From positions 2,336,001 to 2,400,000 of the forward strand of contig CBDCTJ010000007.1 of the NCBI GenBank assembly GCA_965222115.1: a stretch of DNA of 64,000 bases. Direction: 5' to 3'. The notes beneath the pieces are model-generated. The model saw only the letters and a list, made by a program, of their open reading frames with translations. It did not search any database and had not been told where the DNA came from. Source of the DNA: Planctomycetota bacterium. GTDB lineage: Bacteria; Planctomycetota; PLA2; JAEUHO01. A program made the translations under genes and the position numbers. Position 1 is the stretch's first letter; each line of letters begins with the position of its first letter. Below, in pieces: positions 14,984 through 26,100 of this stretch.

Positions 14984-15102
14984 TCACCCGTCACCCGTCA
15001 CCCGTCACCCGTTACCCGGACTCAAGTCTGAGCGTCCGATGTTCGATTAGCGCCTGTTCGTGGACGTGGACGTGGACGTGGACGTGGACGTGGACGTGGA
15101 CG
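14984..15102 (+). repeat. Composite repeat unit 3: (TCACCCG)x4+TTACCCG, core, (GTGGAC)x7
   Basis: Directly visible. The hexamer array ends 1 nt from the stop of 15104-15478. It contains the unoccupied IS target CCCGGA-CT-CAAGT (CT at 15021-15022). Confidence 0.92.
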
Positions 15103-15103
15103 A

Positions 15104-15478
15104 TCACGGGTCGTCGAATCGACGCTGAAGTACGAACAACATCGCGACACATCGCTCCAAGGAGTTCATCACGCGTGAGGTTATGGCGTCGCTGGCGAGG
15201 CCGAGTAGCAGCGCGTGATGTAGGGCCGCAATGGCTTCAGTGCATTCGGCGTGTGCGATGTCGTACGCTTTGCGTTTCTCGGCTGGACGCCTTTTCGATA
15301 GGCCTTCGGCGACGTTTAGCGCCACGCTGGTACTAGCGCGCCTGAGTTGATCGGCGAGCTTTGCGTGGCCTCGAGGCCATGTGGCACAGAGGGCGTTGCA
15401 TTCAAGTGCCGTGGATTGTGAGGTGCGGTAGACATCGAAGCGTTTGAGGTACTCAAGCGTGGAAGACGCGCTTGTCAT
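15104..15478 (-). CDS. Four-helix bundle protein (Avd-like / IVP family), copy A2
   Basis: 124 aa; same signature as 9199-9573, with 19 substitutions by manual alignment. Confidence 0.9.
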   Translation of the reverse strand: MTSASSTLEYLKRFDVYRTSQSTALECNALCATWPRGHAKLADQLRRASTSVALNVAEGLSKRRPAEKRKAYDIAHAECTEAIAALHHALLLGLASDAITSRVMNSLERCVAMLFVLQRRFDDP

Positions 15479-15514
15479 GATGGAACTCCAGCGTTAAGGG
15501 AATGCAAGCCGTTT

Positions 15515-15568
15515 GCTCGCGTGTGCCCTTCGTGAAGGAGCCGAAGGCGAAGGAGGGCACACGCGAGC
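15515..15568 (-). promoter_or_regulatory. Conserved hairpin in the leader of four-helix bundle gene A2
   Basis: Perfect 14-bp stem GCTCGCGTGTGCCC...GGGCACACGCGAGC. Confidence 0.6.
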
Positions 15569-15688
15569 GGGTCGTACAAAAGAAGCCCCGCGTAATAGCG
15601 ACAACTCGTTCTCAAGCTGGAGTTCCATTGCAAGCGGCGCCCGCGCGTACCGATCCCGCTGGAGCAGCCGGCGGTGTTGCCCAAGGTT

Positions 15689-15825
15689 CCGTCACCCGTT
15701 TCCCGTGCCCCGTTACCCGGACTCAAGTGTGGGCGTCCGATGTTCGATTCACGCCAGCTCGTGGACGTGGACGTGGACGTGGACGTGGACGTGGACGTGG
15801 ACGTGGACGTGGACGTGGACGTGGA
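15689..15825 (+). repeat. Composite repeat unit 4: heptamers, core, (GTGGAC)x10
   Basis: CCGTCACCCGTTTCCCGTGCCCCGTTACCCGGA-CT-CAAGTGTGGGCGTCCGATGTTCGATTCACGCCAGCTC-(GTGGAC)10. Confidence 0.92.
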
Positions 15826-23765: not shown

Positions 23766-23822
23766 CCCGTTACCCGAAACCCGTTACCCGTTACCCGACA
23801 CCCGCAACCCGTTACCCGGACT
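23766..23822 (+). repeat. Composite repeat unit 5, left half (heptamers up to the CT insertion point)
   Basis: CCCGTTA-type heptamers ending GTTACCCGGA-CT. Confidence 0.88.
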
Positions 23823-24791
23823 TCTATGAAAGGGCCTGGCATGTCAAGTGCGAAGCCGCGTCGGCGAGCGCATTTACCGCGTTGTGCATGTGTAGTTCGG
23901 CCCCTTGAGTGCGCAACTTACCCTTACCGCCCTTGCCTTTTTGGCAGCGGATCGGGGCGAATCAGATTGCCAGTCATCGTCTCTGGCGCCAGAAAACACG
24001 TCCCATTCAGGCTTCTATGCGCACTCGTGTTGGATCGAAGTTGATGCGACCCGGTGCAAGGTGGGGTCCGAGAACGAGTCTGGGTGCTGCATACTCAGTA
24101 GCGACGTCGCTATACGTCGGTCAGGGCACCGCAGTCACCCGGACTTCTATGAAAGGGCCTGGCATGTCAAGTGCGAAGCCGCGTCGGCGAGCGCATTTAC
24201 CGCGTTGTGCATGTGTAGTTCGGCCCCTTGAGTGCGCAACTTACCCTTACCGCCCTTGCCTTTTTGGCAGCGGATCGGGGCGAATCAGATTGCCAGTCAT
24301 CGTCTCTGGCGCCAGAAAACACGTCCCATTCAGGCTTCTATGCGCACTCGTGTTGGATCGAAGTTGATGCGACCCGGTGCAAGGTGGGGTCCGAGAACGA
24401 GTCTGGGTGCTGCATACTCAGTAGCGACGTCGCTATACGTCGGTCAGGGCACCGCAGTCACCCGGACTTCTATGAAAGGGCCTGGCATGTCAAGTGCGAA
24501 GCCGCGTCGGCGAGCGCATTTACCGCGTTGTGCATGTGTAGTTCGGCCCCTTGAGTGCGCAACTTACCCTTACCGCCCTTGCCTTTTTGGCAGCGGATCG
24601 GGGCGAATCAGATTGCCAGTCATCGTCTCTGGCGCCAGAAAACACGTCCCATTCAGGCTTCTATGCGCACTCGTGTTGGATCGAAGTTGATGCGACCCGG
24701 TGCAAGGTGGGGTCCGAGAACGAGTCTGGGTGCTGCATACTCAGTAGCGACGTCGCTATACGTCGGTCAGGGCACCGCAGTCACCCGGACT
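23823..24791. repeat. Three tandem 323-bp direct repeats (23823-24145, 24146-24468, 24469-24791)
   Basis: ACCCGGACT recurs at 23814, 24137, 24460 and 24783; the units appear identical. Confidence 0.95.
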
Positions 24792-24852
24792 CGAATTGGG
24801 GTACGTGGAAACTGACCTTATCTAATGCTTGCCTAAAGCTGTTGCGCGAGGT
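24469..24852 (-). ncRNA. Putative bridge/seek RNA region downstream of the transposase
   Basis: Location typical of IS1111. Contains a target-like segment (ACCCGG-TG-CAAG-GTGGG-GTCCGA), donor-junction-like segments (TCCCAT and CTTCTATG) and stem-forming sequences. Exact ends unknown. Confidence 0.65.
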
Positions 24853-25902
24853 TCAGGCGGCCACTGGGCATCGAACCGGTATGTACTCTTCGCCTGTTCG
24901 CCACAGCGCAAGCATGAGCACGGAGAGCTTGCGTGCCACGGCGATGACTGCCTTGCGTTTCGCAACTGCGCCTCCACGCGCAATGATCCGCTCACCGTGG
25001 GACTTTAGATCGCATGGCGGGCCCAGTCGCCCGAGGATGTGATGCGCGCACTGAACGAGCAACGACCGAACCATACGGTCCCCAGCCTTCGTTATGCGTA
25101 GCTGCTTGTCCATTTGGCCGGATTGATCACGCCGTGGAACCATCCCGAGAAACGCCCCGACATCTCGGCGGTCTTCAAACCGCGCCCAATCTTGAACGGT
25201 TAACATGAATGCGAGTGCCGTGAGATTGCCCACGCCTGGAATCTGAGTGAGCAACTGTGTATCTGGATATCGCTCGTTCGCCAACTCATCGATCTTTGCG
25301 TCGTAGATCTTTACCAACTCAGTGATTCGCTCGATTGCACCGAGAAGGGGACTAAGCACATCGTAGAGCTCCTCCGGAATCTCGGCCCGCGTCTTCGTTC
25401 CGATGCATTTTGATGCCTGCTTACGCAACCGCCCGCCCATGCTCTTAATGACGCCTCGTAGCGAGTTCACCAACTTGGTTCGTGACGACACAAGCGCGGC
25501 TCGTGCACGAATCAGCGCAAGGTCTCGTTGTGCGGACTCCGGTCGATGCCGAATTGGGGCAAGTAGTTGGGGATCGAAGCGACCGATTTCAGCCAACTTC
25601 TTGGCATCCGTTCGATCGGACTTGCGAGTGTTCCTGTAAATAAAGCTTAGCTCTCGCGGATTCGCGACTAGCGACTGAGCACATCGACCTTCGACGACCC
25701 GACTCGCCCAAGGCGAATGCGTTCCCGCCTCCATCACAACTCGAGCGGTTCGGTGCTTCGATAGAAACTCGTGAAACGATTCGCGCGTTGTCGCTATCTC
25801 GCCTTCTTCCTTCTGAACCCCCGTGTCTTGATCTAAGACGCAATACCAAGAGAATCGGTCGCCTAAGTCGATGCCAATCGTTTCGGTGATACGCTTATGC
25901 AT
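24853..25902 (-). CDS. IS110 family transposase/recombinase
   Basis: TIGIDLG, VMEAG and KSDRTDA (DEDD RuvC-like domain); IPGVG...GMVPRRDQSG...ITKAG; AVARKL; AGGAGGAG RBS. Confidence 0.95.
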   Translation of the reverse strand: MHKRITETIGIDLGDRFSWYCVLDQDTGVQKEEGEIATTRESFHEFLSKHRTARVVMEAGTHSPWASRVVEGRCAQSLVANPRELSFIYRNTRKSDRTDAKKLAEIGRFDPQLLAPIRHRPESAQRDLALIRARAALVSSRTKLVNSLRGVIKSMGGRLRKQASKCIGTKTRAEIPEELYDVLSPLLGAIERITELVKIYDAKIDELANERYPDTQLLTQIPGVGNLTALAFMLTVQDWARFEDRRDVGAFLGMVPRRDQSGQMDKQLRITKAGDRMVRSLLVQCAHHILGRLGPPCDLKSHGERIIARGGAVAKRKAVIAVARKLSVLMLALWRTGEEYIPVRCPVAA

Positions 25903-26001
25903 GCTGGTAGCTCCTCCTGGGCCGTAGAGCCCGCTTATTGTTTGCAGCACGGTTTACCGTGACTGCGCGACAGAGGAGCTACCGGCCTTTTCATCCCATC
26001 T

Positions 26002-26100
26002 CAAGTGTGAGCGTCCGATAGTCGATTCACGCCAGCTCGTGGACGTGGACGTGGACGTGGACGTGGACGTGGACGTGGACGTGGACGTGGACGTGGACGT
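26002..26100 (+). repeat. Composite repeat unit 5, right half: core remainder + (GTGGAC)x10
   Basis: CAAGTGTGAGCGTCCGATAGTCGATTCACGCCAGCTC-(GTGGAC)10, matching unit 4. Confidence 0.9.

What the first reader, a model, noticed from the sequence alone, without database searches (positions are those of the whole stretch)
23814..26100. IS1111-type element inserted precisely at the CT core of the composite repeat
Seen: removing 23823-26001 restores GTTACCCGGA-CT-CAAGTGTGAGCGTCCGA, matching the empty units at 15012-15039 and 15713-15740. CT is at both ends. Sub-terminal IRs sit 3 nt (ATGAAAGGGCC) and 5 nt (GGCCTTTTCAT) inside the cores. The target is an imperfect hairpin (CGGACTCA...TGAGCGTCCG). Established: IS110/IS1111 elements recombine at a short core, are RNA-guided and include members targeting REPs or attC sites. 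Inference: this IS parasitises the repeat family, which implies the core is abundant and conserved. Donor, target and empty sites can all be read from this window.
Basis: partly seen in the sequence, partly recalled or inferred. Interest (0 to 1): 0.8.

Follow-up and report, generated by a model that had tools for sequence, protein, structure and literature searches.

The report
RNA-guided insertion sequence with triplicated end
A mobile element of the RNA-guided IS110/IS1111 kind sits exactly inside one copy of a host repeat, but that repeat is not its usual landing site, and this copy has tripled the 323-base end that encodes its guide RNA.

Summary
Deleting 23823-26001 restores an intact composite-repeat unit, CT lies at both ends, and the sub-terminal inverted repeats are where stated.

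- The 2179 bp are not a plain IS. The canonical element is 1533 bp. This copy carries a perfect three-fold tandem of its 323-bp end (23823-24791).
- The two other full copies in the genome lie in a different repeat family, ATACGG heptamers followed by ...GGGCAAAATCCACAC.

Comparison with relatives from several phyla defines a conserved two-loop bridge/seek RNA downstream of the transposase. Its target guides covary with the flanks. For this IS they predict TACTG-AG-TCAGGGC, which is the ATACGG family.

The composite repeat matches only the right-hand guide (7 of 8, against 2 of 5 on the left). This is therefore a near-cognate "half-match" insertion, not specialisation on that repeat.

The tandem unit runs from the IS end to an internal AG-TCCGGGT. 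That sequence encodes a stem of the RNA and happens to equal the flank. The amplification arose by unequal exchange there, by host recombination or by the transposase.

This is a new member of a known kind, with instructive anatomy.

The parts
23766..23822 (+). Left half of the interrupted composite-repeat unit: CCCGTTA-type heptamers, then TTACCCGGA and the CT core (23821-22). In transposase orientation this is the right target half, AG-TCCGGGTAAC.
23823..24145 (-). Unit U1 of the 323-bp tandem array. It carries the true IS terminus with its sub-terminal IR (23826-23836), an outward-facing TTGACA (23842-23847), the donor-guide site with CT at 24012-13, and a bridge-RNA copy (model hit 23990-24158).
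24146..24468 (-). Unit U2, 100% identical to U1 and U3. Bridge-RNA model hit at 24313-24481 (137.7 bits).
24469..24791 (-). Unit U3, the 3' non-coding end that every canonical copy has. It ends at the internal CT (24790-91) of GTCACCCGGACT, here called 'site 2'.
24636..24804 (-). Full bridge/seek RNA (model R1, 154 bits). It holds stem P1, whose 5' strand GAGUCCGGGUGACUGC covers site 2; the target loop, with the right-target guide at about 24766-24773 and the left-target guide plus core at 24740-24746; and the donor loop, with the donor guide AUAGAAG at 24658-24664 ('site 3').
24853..25902 (-). Transposase gene, 349 aa from the ATG. Pfam PF01548 and PF02371; NCBIfam NF033542, 220.6 bits. Motif GMVPRRDQSG at residue 253.
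25903..26001 (-). 5' non-coding end (99 nt including the core), with the sub-terminal IR at 25984-25994, the terminal CCCAT and the CT core at 26000-01.
26002..26100 (+). Right half of the interrupted composite-repeat unit: CAAGTGTGAGCGTCCGAT..., then the (CGTGGA)n hexamer array at 26038-26100.
15012..15039 (+). Empty composite-repeat core, used as a reference target.
15713..15740 (+). Empty composite-repeat core, used as a reference target.

Best explanation
This is a copy of an unnamed IS1111-group (IS110-family) insertion sequence of an uncultured planctomycete. The canonical element is 1533 bp. It has a 99-nt 5' end, a 349-aa DEDD transposase gene and a 384-nt 3' non-coding end.

The 3' end encodes a bridge/seek RNA of about 150 nt with two stem-internal-loop modules.
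- In the target loop, the 5' side is antisense to the second core base (G of AG) plus the right flank. The 3' side has the sense of the left flank plus the core.
- In the donor loop, one guide has the sense of the IS 3' end plus the core.
- Read this way, the element's cognate site is about TACTG-AG-TCAGGGC. That is the ATACGG-heptamer/...AAAATCCACAC repeat, where the other copies sit.

The window copy went into a composite-repeat core (ACTTG-AG-TCCGGGT) instead. That site pairs well only with the right-target guide. I read this as a near-cognate, right-half-match insertion at the AG/CT core (inferred).

After insertion, the flank AG-TCCGGGTAAC stood 323 bp from the internal AG-TCCGGGTGAC, which is the DNA for the 5' strand of RNA stem P1. 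Unequal exchange within this 9-nt identity duplicated the RNA-coding end, and a further exchange triplicated it.
- The first step was either host microhomology recombination (about 50%) or transposase-mediated half-site recombination at the core (about 40%).
- The step from two to three units needs only ordinary homologous recombination between the 323-bp repeats.

Shown: anatomy, copies, flanks, RNA structure, and guide-flank covariation. Inferred: the half-match mechanism, the way the array arose, and RNA expression.
For: Family and copies:
- Pfam and NCBIfam place the protein in the IS110 family.
- There are three intact copies, 98-99% identical, and only the window copy has the tandem.

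RNA:
- The RNA model built from 7 planctomycete relatives finds the same RNA downstream of tnp in 22 of 28 loci searched. These include MAGs labelled Myxococcaceae, Verrucomicrobia, Acidobacteriaceae, Gemmatimonadetes, Anaerolineaceae and Nitrospirota.
- On 29 distinct sequences, 93.5% of cells pair, against 76.8% when shuffled. 20 of 34 pairs show changes on both sides. Slid controls pair at 27-44%.

Guides:
- Right-target guide against its own flank: mean 6.5 of 8, against 4.4 for 496 non-cognate pairings. A score of 7 or more occurs in 12 of 23 cognate pairings against 3.2% of non-cognate ones.
- Left-target guide: mean 3.9 of 5 against 1.6. A score of 4 or more occurs in 12 of 17 against 6% of 264.
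- The donor guide tracks the IS 3' end (AGA, GGA, ACA or GGC) and even the core (AG or AC).

This IS:
- The best genomic match to the predicted site (11 of 12) is an empty ATACCG-AG-TCAGGGCGAAATCCACA unit.
- The window target scores 2 of 5 on the left and 7 of 8 on the right.
- The guides are identical in all three copies, so there was no retargeting.
- Site 2 is present in all copies and lies in stem P1.
- A 51-nt public contig spans the unit-unit junction.

Literature: a single matched half-site plus the core suffices for IS621 insertion in vitro (preprint 10.64898/2026.08.31.748434, sections 7 and 8 read).
Against: - The 12-position guide score does not single out real sites. 484 AG sites in the genome score 9, like the window site, and the C7:506882 copy scores only 4 of 8 on the right. 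Other determinants must exist.
- The guide register is inferred from covariation, not measured.
- No RNA data and no circle junction were obtained.
- The number of units (three) rests on the assembly. Contigs support only the junction, with 30 and 21 nt on its two sides.
- Half-match recombination has been shown for IS621, not for an IS1111-group element.
- The window copy's transposase differs from both others at six clustered residues (169-209). A change of specificity on the protein side is therefore not excluded.
Confidence: 0.75

Rival explanations
1. One reading: the IS is specialised on the composite repeat and parasitises it. The CT core of that repeat is its cognate, RNA-specified target.
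For: - The insertion is exact at the core.
- The right half of the repeat pairs 7 of 8 with the proposed right-target guide.
- About 28 further units offer the same site.
Against: - Only 1 of 3 full copies is there.
- None of the 4 left flanks of fragments and solo modules, and neither of the 2 further flank types in contigs, are of this kind.
- The left-target guide matches 2 of 5.
- The best predicted site is of the ATACGG family.
- The guides are identical in all copies.
Confidence: 0.08
2. The composite repeat is a true second target of a variant element. Either the six clustered substitutions in the window copy's transposase (residues 169-209) relax or shift target choice, or the 3' strand of stem P1 (ACCCAGACUC) serves as a second guide. 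That strand is complementary to GAGTCCGGGT with one mismatch.
For: - The clustered substitutions are unique to this copy.
- There is a 10-nt identity between the P1 coding strand and the target, in register with the core.
Against: - P1 is a conserved, covarying stem in all relatives, whatever their targets.
- Once a site must fit the right-target guide (TC.GGG.), a further match to P1 needs only two more positions, so chance suffices.
- There is one insertion only.
Confidence: 0.12
3. The array was made by the transposase, not by host recombination. Site 2 carries the same right half-site as the flank. Three routes are possible. A second circle inserts into site 2 and one transposase module is then lost by homologous recombination. 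Or the right junction recombines with site 2 of the sister chromatid. Or a 323-bp minicircle is excised and re-inserted, as with ISPpu9's ssr9 module.
For: - The unit borders lie exactly at core dinucleotides.
- Two solo end modules of about 191 bp elsewhere in the genome are bounded at the core of the donor-guide site, with only 3 nt of identity to the left junction. That points to recombinase action at an internal half-site.
- Alternative circles are documented for ISPpu9 (PMC12288879, section 15 read).
- Half-site recombination is documented for IS621 (preprint above).
Against: - A 9-nt exact direct repeat (11 of 12) is enough for rare RecA-independent duplication, and it gives the same junction.
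- The two copies without a matching flank have no array, as both models predict.
- No test here separates the two.
Confidence: 0.4
4. The triplication is an assembly artefact and the real locus has one unit.
For: - The units are 100% identical.
- No read-level data were available. Contigs cannot count repeats.
Against: - A contig in run X3 (24439-24489) carries the unit-unit junction. That junction cannot come from a one-unit copy.
- Depth is non-zero over that bin in X1, X3 and X4.
- These runs may be the assembly's own source, so this is not independent support.
Confidence: 0.1

Closest known systems
IS1111-family elements with a seekRNA (ISEc11, ISPa11, ISKpn4; Siddiquee et al. 2024, PMC11187229; sections 6, 9 and 13 read)
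   Same: - Sub-terminal IRs.
- The long non-coding region lies downstream of tnp.
- The transposase is in the 330-350 aa range, with the G..P....SG motif.
- Two short RNA segments match the two strands of the target and overlap at the core.
- The segment complementary to the top strand lies 5' of the other.
   Different: - The transposase is at most 34% identical to plasmid-borne IS110-family proteins. No named relative was found.
- The RNA family is not in Rfam.
- This copy sits in a site matching one guide only, and it carries three RNA genes.
IS621 and its bridge RNA (Durrant et al. 2024, PMC11208160, passages read; half-match preprint 10.64898/2026.08.31.748434, sections 7 and 8 read)
   Same: - A two-loop RNA with target and donor guides around a 2-nt core.
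- Insertion at sites that match only one arm plus the core is described for IS621 and fits the window insertion.
   Different: - IS621 belongs to the IS110 group, with its RNA upstream of tnp and a CT core on the transposase strand.
- Only the C-terminal domain aligns (8wt6, E 1.8e-5).
- Half-match activity is untested for IS1111-group elements.
ISPpu9 with its ssr9 module (Pares-Guillen et al. 2025, PMC12288879; abstract and section 15 read)
   Same: - AG at all module borders.
- Several alternative recombination sites inside one element.
- A small RNA-coding end module that also occurs alone in the genome.
   Different: - Here the internal sites are not duplicated end boxes. They are the DNA encoding a guide (site 3) and a stem (site 2) of the element's own RNA.
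- The left border of the 323-bp unit does not resemble the IS left end.
- No circles were observed here.
IS1111 members that target REP or attC hairpin repeats (cited in PMC11208160 and PMC11187229; not read themselves)
   Same: The cognate site of this IS is also a short, multi-copy intergenic host repeat.
   Different: The repeat it specialises on is the ATACGG/...AAAATCCACAC family, not the composite repeat of the finding. The hairpin of the composite core is not significant.

Membership tests
IS110 family (DEDD RNA-guided transposases) | Transposase with DEDD_Tnp_IS110 and Transposase_20 domains, above curated cut-offs | tested here: met
   PF01548 at 66.7 bits (cut-off 29). PF02371 at 78.7 bits (cut-off 21.3). 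NF033542 at 220.6 bits (cut-off 140).
IS110 family (DEDD RNA-guided transposases) | No target-site duplication; one short core present in the target and at both junctions | tested here: met
   CT lies at both junctions of all 3 copies. Removal restores a single CT.
IS110 family (DEDD RNA-guided transposases) | Catalytic DEDD residues and the serine of the SG motif | tested here: inconclusive
   The SG motif is present (GMVPRRDQSG at 253) and aligns with ISCro4 and IS621. The DEDD residues were not mapped one by one.
IS1111 group | Sub-terminal inverted repeats of 7-17 bp | tested here: met
   11 bp: 10 of 11 in the window copy and 11 of 11 in the others. ATGAGAAGGC-type IRs are conserved in relatives.
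IS1111 group | The longer non-coding region lies downstream of tnp | tested here: met
   384 nt downstream against 99 nt upstream.
IS1111 group | Transposase of 330-350 aa with GL-P----S(t)G | tested here: met
   349 aa; GMVPRRDQSG. The criterion is taken from PMC11187229, section 6.
IS1111 group | Phylogenetic placement among IS1111-group transposases of ISfinder | not testable with these tools
   No ISfinder set was available. The best plasmid hits are unnamed 'IS110 family transposase' entries at 34% identity or less.
Bridge/seek RNA | Conserved structured RNA in the non-coding end, with covariation | tested here: met
   20 of 34 pairs show changes on both sides; 93.5% of cells pair against 76.8% when shuffled.
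Bridge/seek RNA | Loop segments that covary with the target flanks and the IS ends | tested here: met
   (cognate against non-cognate pairings). Donor guide against the 3' end and the core.
Bridge/seek RNA | The RNA is made and is needed for transposition | not testable with these tools
   No RNA run was listed. An experiment is needed.
   1 of 3 full copies. About 28 other units are empty.
ISPpu9-type modular element | An end module bounded by copies of both end boxes (A' and B') | tested here: not met
   Site 3 mimics the right end (CATAGA-AG). The left border of the 323-bp unit (AG-TCCGGGTGAC) does not resemble the left end (AG-ATGGGATGA).

The most novel reading that the evidence does not exclude
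DNA that encodes parts of a bridge RNA is itself a substrate for the element's recombinase. Two such parts are involved here: a donor guide, which must mimic the IS end, and a stem, which by chance mimics the chosen flank.

On this reading the element remodels itself by half-site recombination. It sheds solo end modules of about 191 bp at the guide-coding site, and it builds tandem arrays of guide-RNA genes at the stem-coding site.

The window would then be a natural record of half-match insertion and half-match self-recombination in an IS1111-group element.
Probability: 0.35. Interest if true: 0.6.

Novelty: new member of a known kind. Interest (0 to 1): 0.45.

Why it matters
- It corrects the reading of the locus. 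The composite repeat is a bystander hit, not the element's niche.
- It gives a decoded, phylum-spanning bridge/seek RNA family for a clade of IS1111-group elements that has no Rfam model. The guide positions can be tested directly.
- It offers a natural case for a question now open in the bridge-recombinase field: how much of the guide must match. One insertion is supported by one guide arm only. Internal sites look like guide-templated pseudo-ends.
- For genome annotation, 2-kb 'IS' calls of this family may hide tandem RNA modules.

Tried and rejected
- Rfam: no family. There were only two chance-level hits (E 2.3 and 9.4).
- Idea that the internal GAGTCCGGGT is the target guide of a retargeted copy: rejected. 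It is present in all three copies, conserved in relatives with other targets, and forms the 5' strand of a covarying stem.
- Idea that the terminal 192 bp is a foreign add-on module, because BLAST to relatives stopped at query position 186: qualified. Relatives have a homologous but shorter terminal region of about 85 nt.
- Sequencing runs: no RNA holder is listed. All four runs are contigs from one study.
  - No circle junction was seen.
  - The joint that 'skips 2179' (X4, side 27) and the 23790-to-26000 joints fit paralogous composite units at C7:2744054 and C7:2846635. The loose ends match those units. I do not count them as an empty allele.
  - One X4 contig joins C7:592725 to site 2 without a clean core. 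This is left unexplained and may be a chimera.
- Target hairpin: not better than shuffles.
- The search for related loci gave only relatives at 50% identity or less. Close copies exist only in the window's own genome (9 of 29 genomes of the family have any DNA match; the others match at about 65-85%).
- (fuzzy search for reconstructed empty sites) timed out. It was replaced by exact-motif counts.
- (regex census of the ATACGG family) used a faulty filter and is not used.
- The search of earlier findings: nothing on this element.
Full report
**The observation.**
- The region 23823-26001 is bounded by CT on both sides (23821-22 and 26000-01).
- Joining the flanks gives a normal composite-repeat unit, one mismatch away from the empty units at 15012-15039 and 15713-15740.
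They are 10 of 11 complementary here and 11 of 11 in the other copies.
- A transposase gene lies on the minus strand. It has the two Pfam domains of the IS110 family and reaches 220.6 bits on NCBIfam NF033542, 'IS110 family RNA-guided transposase'.
- From the ATG behind a GGAGGAG motif it is 349 aa long (24853-25902) and carries GMVPRRDQSG.
- The target 'hairpin' is no better than shuffled sequence.

- Tandem Repeats Finder reports a 323-bp unit, 3.0 copies, 100% identical, from 23814 to 24791.
- The genome (7 contigs, 4.55 Mb) has two more full copies, at C7:506882-508414 and C3:484747-486278. They are 1533 and 1532 bp long, 98-99% identical, and each has one unit.
- The canonical element therefore corresponds to window 24469-26001. 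The window copy has two extra copies of its 3' end.
- All three transposase genes are intact. The window copy differs from both others at six residues clustered between 169 and 209.

**Where the other copies sit.** The motifs below are given in transposase orientation, so the core reads AG.
- The window copy lies in ...CACACTTG-AG-TCCGGGTAAC.
- The other two lie in GATACCG-AG-GGCAAAATCCACAC and ATACGG-AG-TACGGGAAAAATCCACAC.
- Two 5'-end fragments on contig C1 are flanked by GATACCG-AG. Two solo end modules of about 191 bp on C1 are flanked by GATACCA-AG.
- Public contigs show two more flank types of the same kind next to the IS 5' end.
- This is a second repeat family: ATACGG heptamers, a variable dinucleotide, then TACGGGCAAAATCCACAC. 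The 11-mer AAAATCCACAC occurs 22 times against about 2 expected. By my reading of that list, 18 are family members: 11 with TG, 3 with CG and 4 with AG at the core position. Two of the four AG sites are occupied. One more empty AG member turned up.
- The composite repeat has 28 other units within 5 mismatches of the 28-mer, all empty.

**The RNA.**
- Rfam has nothing here.
- Related elements at about 65% DNA identity occur in 8 of 28 other genomes of the family. Transposases at 35-50% identity occur in MAGs of several phyla.
- An alignment of seven planctomycete 3' ends folds into two stem-loop modules.
- A covariance model built from it finds the same RNA downstream of tnp in 22 of 28 loci searched, and in 12 of 40 genomes of the class, G000 included.
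- On 29 distinct sequences, 93.5% of cells pair, against 76.8% after shuffling and 27-44% after sliding. 20 of 34 pairs show changes on both sides.
- The alignment was fitted to the model, which favours the structure. Even so, the slid controls and the compensatory changes are clear.

**The guides.** I extracted the IS ends from the conserved sub-terminal repeats and compared the loops with the flanks.
- The 5' side of the first internal loop is antisense to the G of the core plus the right flank. Examples are 9 of 9 in G004, 8 of 8 in an Acidobacteriaceae MAG and 7 of 7 in an Anaerolineaceae MAG. Cognate pairings average 6.5 of 8, against 4.4 for 496 non-cognate ones. A score of 7 or more occurs in 12 of 23 against 3.2%.
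- The 3' side has the sense of the left flank plus AG. The means are 3.9 against 1.6 of 5. A score of 4 or more occurs in 12 of 17 against 6% of 264.
- Rows left out of these counts: the G015-type loci, whose loop could not be aligned; loci cut by contig ends; L022 on the left side, where the register slipped by one; and the window's own three copies, which were scored separately.
- In the second module, a segment with the sense of the IS 3' end plus the core follows that end through AGA, GGA, ACA and GGC, and through an AG-to-AC change of core.
- The order, top-strand match 5' of bottom-strand match, is the one reported for IS1111-family seekRNAs (PMC11187229, section 9).

**Reading this element.**
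- Its loops are GGUGCCCUGACC and GCUACUGAGUAU, identical in all three copies. They predict TACTG-AG-TCAGGGC.
- The best site in the genome (11 of 12) is an empty GATACCG-AG-TCAGGGCGAAATCCACA unit. The ATACGG family is therefore the cognate target.
- The window site scores 2 of 5 on the left and 7 of 8 on the right, counting one G:U pair. The C3 copy scores 4 of 5 and 5 of 8. The C7 copy scores 4 of 5 and 4 of 8.
- The score alone is not sufficient. 484 AG sites score 9, so other determinants must act.
- A recent preprint shows that for IS621 one matched arm plus the core is enough for insertion, and that such 'half-match' events make up about half of non-target insertions (10.64898/2026.08.31.748434, sections 7 and 8).
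- I read the window insertion as a right-arm half-match event. This step is inference.

**The tandem array.**
- Each unit runs from the IS 3' terminus (...CATAGA-AG) back to an internal AG-TCCGGGTGAC, 'site 2'.
- Site 2 is in every copy. It encodes the 5' strand of stem P1, which is conserved or covarying in all relatives. It is therefore a structural element, not a guide.
- It shares AGTCCGGGT, and 11 of 12 bases, with the flank of this one insertion. The chance of this is not small once the flank must fit the right guide (TC.GGG.), because only two further positions are then free.
- Exchange between the flank and site 2 of a sister copy gives exactly the observed junction. The two copies without such a flank have no array.
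- Each extra unit carries a nearly complete RNA gene (137.7 against 154 bits) and a full right end.
- A 51-nt contig of run X3 (24439-24489) carries the unit-unit junction. The number of units cannot be checked with contigs.

**Host recombination or the transposase?** Both give the same product.
- For the host: nine identical bases can seed a rare duplication, and expansion from two to three units is ordinary homologous recombination.
- For the transposase, first point: the borders lie at core dinucleotides, and site 2 has the same right half-site that the element did use.
- For the transposase, second point: the two solo end modules on C1 end exactly at the core of the donor-guide site (GCGCATAGA-AG-CC). 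They share only 3 nt of identity with a left junction. This looks like recombinase action at a guide-templated pseudo-end.
- ISPpu9 forms several alternative circles in a comparable way (PMC12288879, section 15).
- I put the host route at about 50%, the transposase route at about 40% and an assembly artefact at about 10%.

**Other features.**
- An outward TTGACA lies 17 nt from GAAGAT across the predicted circle junction. The TTGACA is conserved in relatives. This fits the junction promoters known for this family, which I recall rather than tested.
- Earlier notes of this scan call the organism a planctomycete. I did not check this.

**Verdict.**
- The element is an IS1111-group, RNA-guided IS, new as a member but not as a kind.
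- The interest lies in three things: the decoded RNA, the one-armed target match, and the internal sites that reshape the element.

Noticed in passing
window 15012-15740: Two empty composite-repeat units, about 700 bp apart, bracket a 124-aa gene (15104-15478, minus strand) of the 23S_rRNA_IVP / four-helix-bundle family (PF05635, E 6e-17). Elsewhere in the genome the composite units also come in pairs or trios 660-950 bp apart. This suggests that the repeat travels with such small genes.
   Followed up: partly
genome-wide, e.g. G000:C7:69893, C7:1573620, C7:645786; a partial member at about window 46030: A second repeat family: ATACGG heptamers, a variable dinucleotide (TG, CG or AG), then TACGGGCAAAATCCACAC(T)TTTCG. 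There are about 20 copies, often in pairs. It is the cognate target of the IS. Its own function is unknown.
   Followed up: partly
window 25276-25398 (transposase residues 169-209): The window copy's transposase differs from both other copies at six clustered residues: T169S, Y180C, S184N, L186I, G188S and N209K. The cluster lies between the catalytic and C-terminal domains and looks like a short recombination tract.
   Followed up: no
G000:C1:602197-602388 and C1:603931-604122: Two solo copies (92-93% identical to the IS) of the terminal 191 bp or so. They are bounded at the core of the donor-guide site and flanked by GATACCA-AG on the left. IS 5'-end fragments lie nearby, at C1:600989-601147 and C1:617015-617095.
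   Followed up: partly
window 24789 (run X4 contig): One public contig joins sequence of G000:C7:592725 to the IS at site 2, without a clean core at the partner. It may be a chimera or a rearrangement in another strain.
   Followed up: partly
L014 and L015 (one Verrucomicrobiae MAG): Two copies share the same RNA. One lies in a flank matching both guides (5 of 5 and 7 of 8). The other lies in an unmatched site (1 of 5 and 5 of 8). This looks like another natural off-target insertion.
   Followed up: no
L061, L066, L068, L072, L063 (G015, G014): A sub-group of relatives uses AC instead of AG as its core, with the donor guide changed to match (AUAGA-AC). It also has a large insertion in place of the target-loop hairpin.
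   Followed up: no
L010, L011, L012, L017, L024 (one Myxococcaceae MAG): Five copies of a related IS lie in the same long palindromic host repeat, with inverted repeats of at least 16 bp around the insertion point. Both guides match it.
   Followed up: no
genome-wide, e.g. G000:C3:48775, C3:233380, C7:2334652, C7:2784044: A third, palindromic repeat, TAACCCGGACT...AGTCCGGGTTA, shares the ACCCGGACT 9-mer with the composite repeat and with site 2. The 9-mer occurs 45 times in the genome.
   Followed up: no
L031 (G004:C54): Two copies of the related IS lie head to tail, about 100 bp apart, on a short contig.
   Followed up: no
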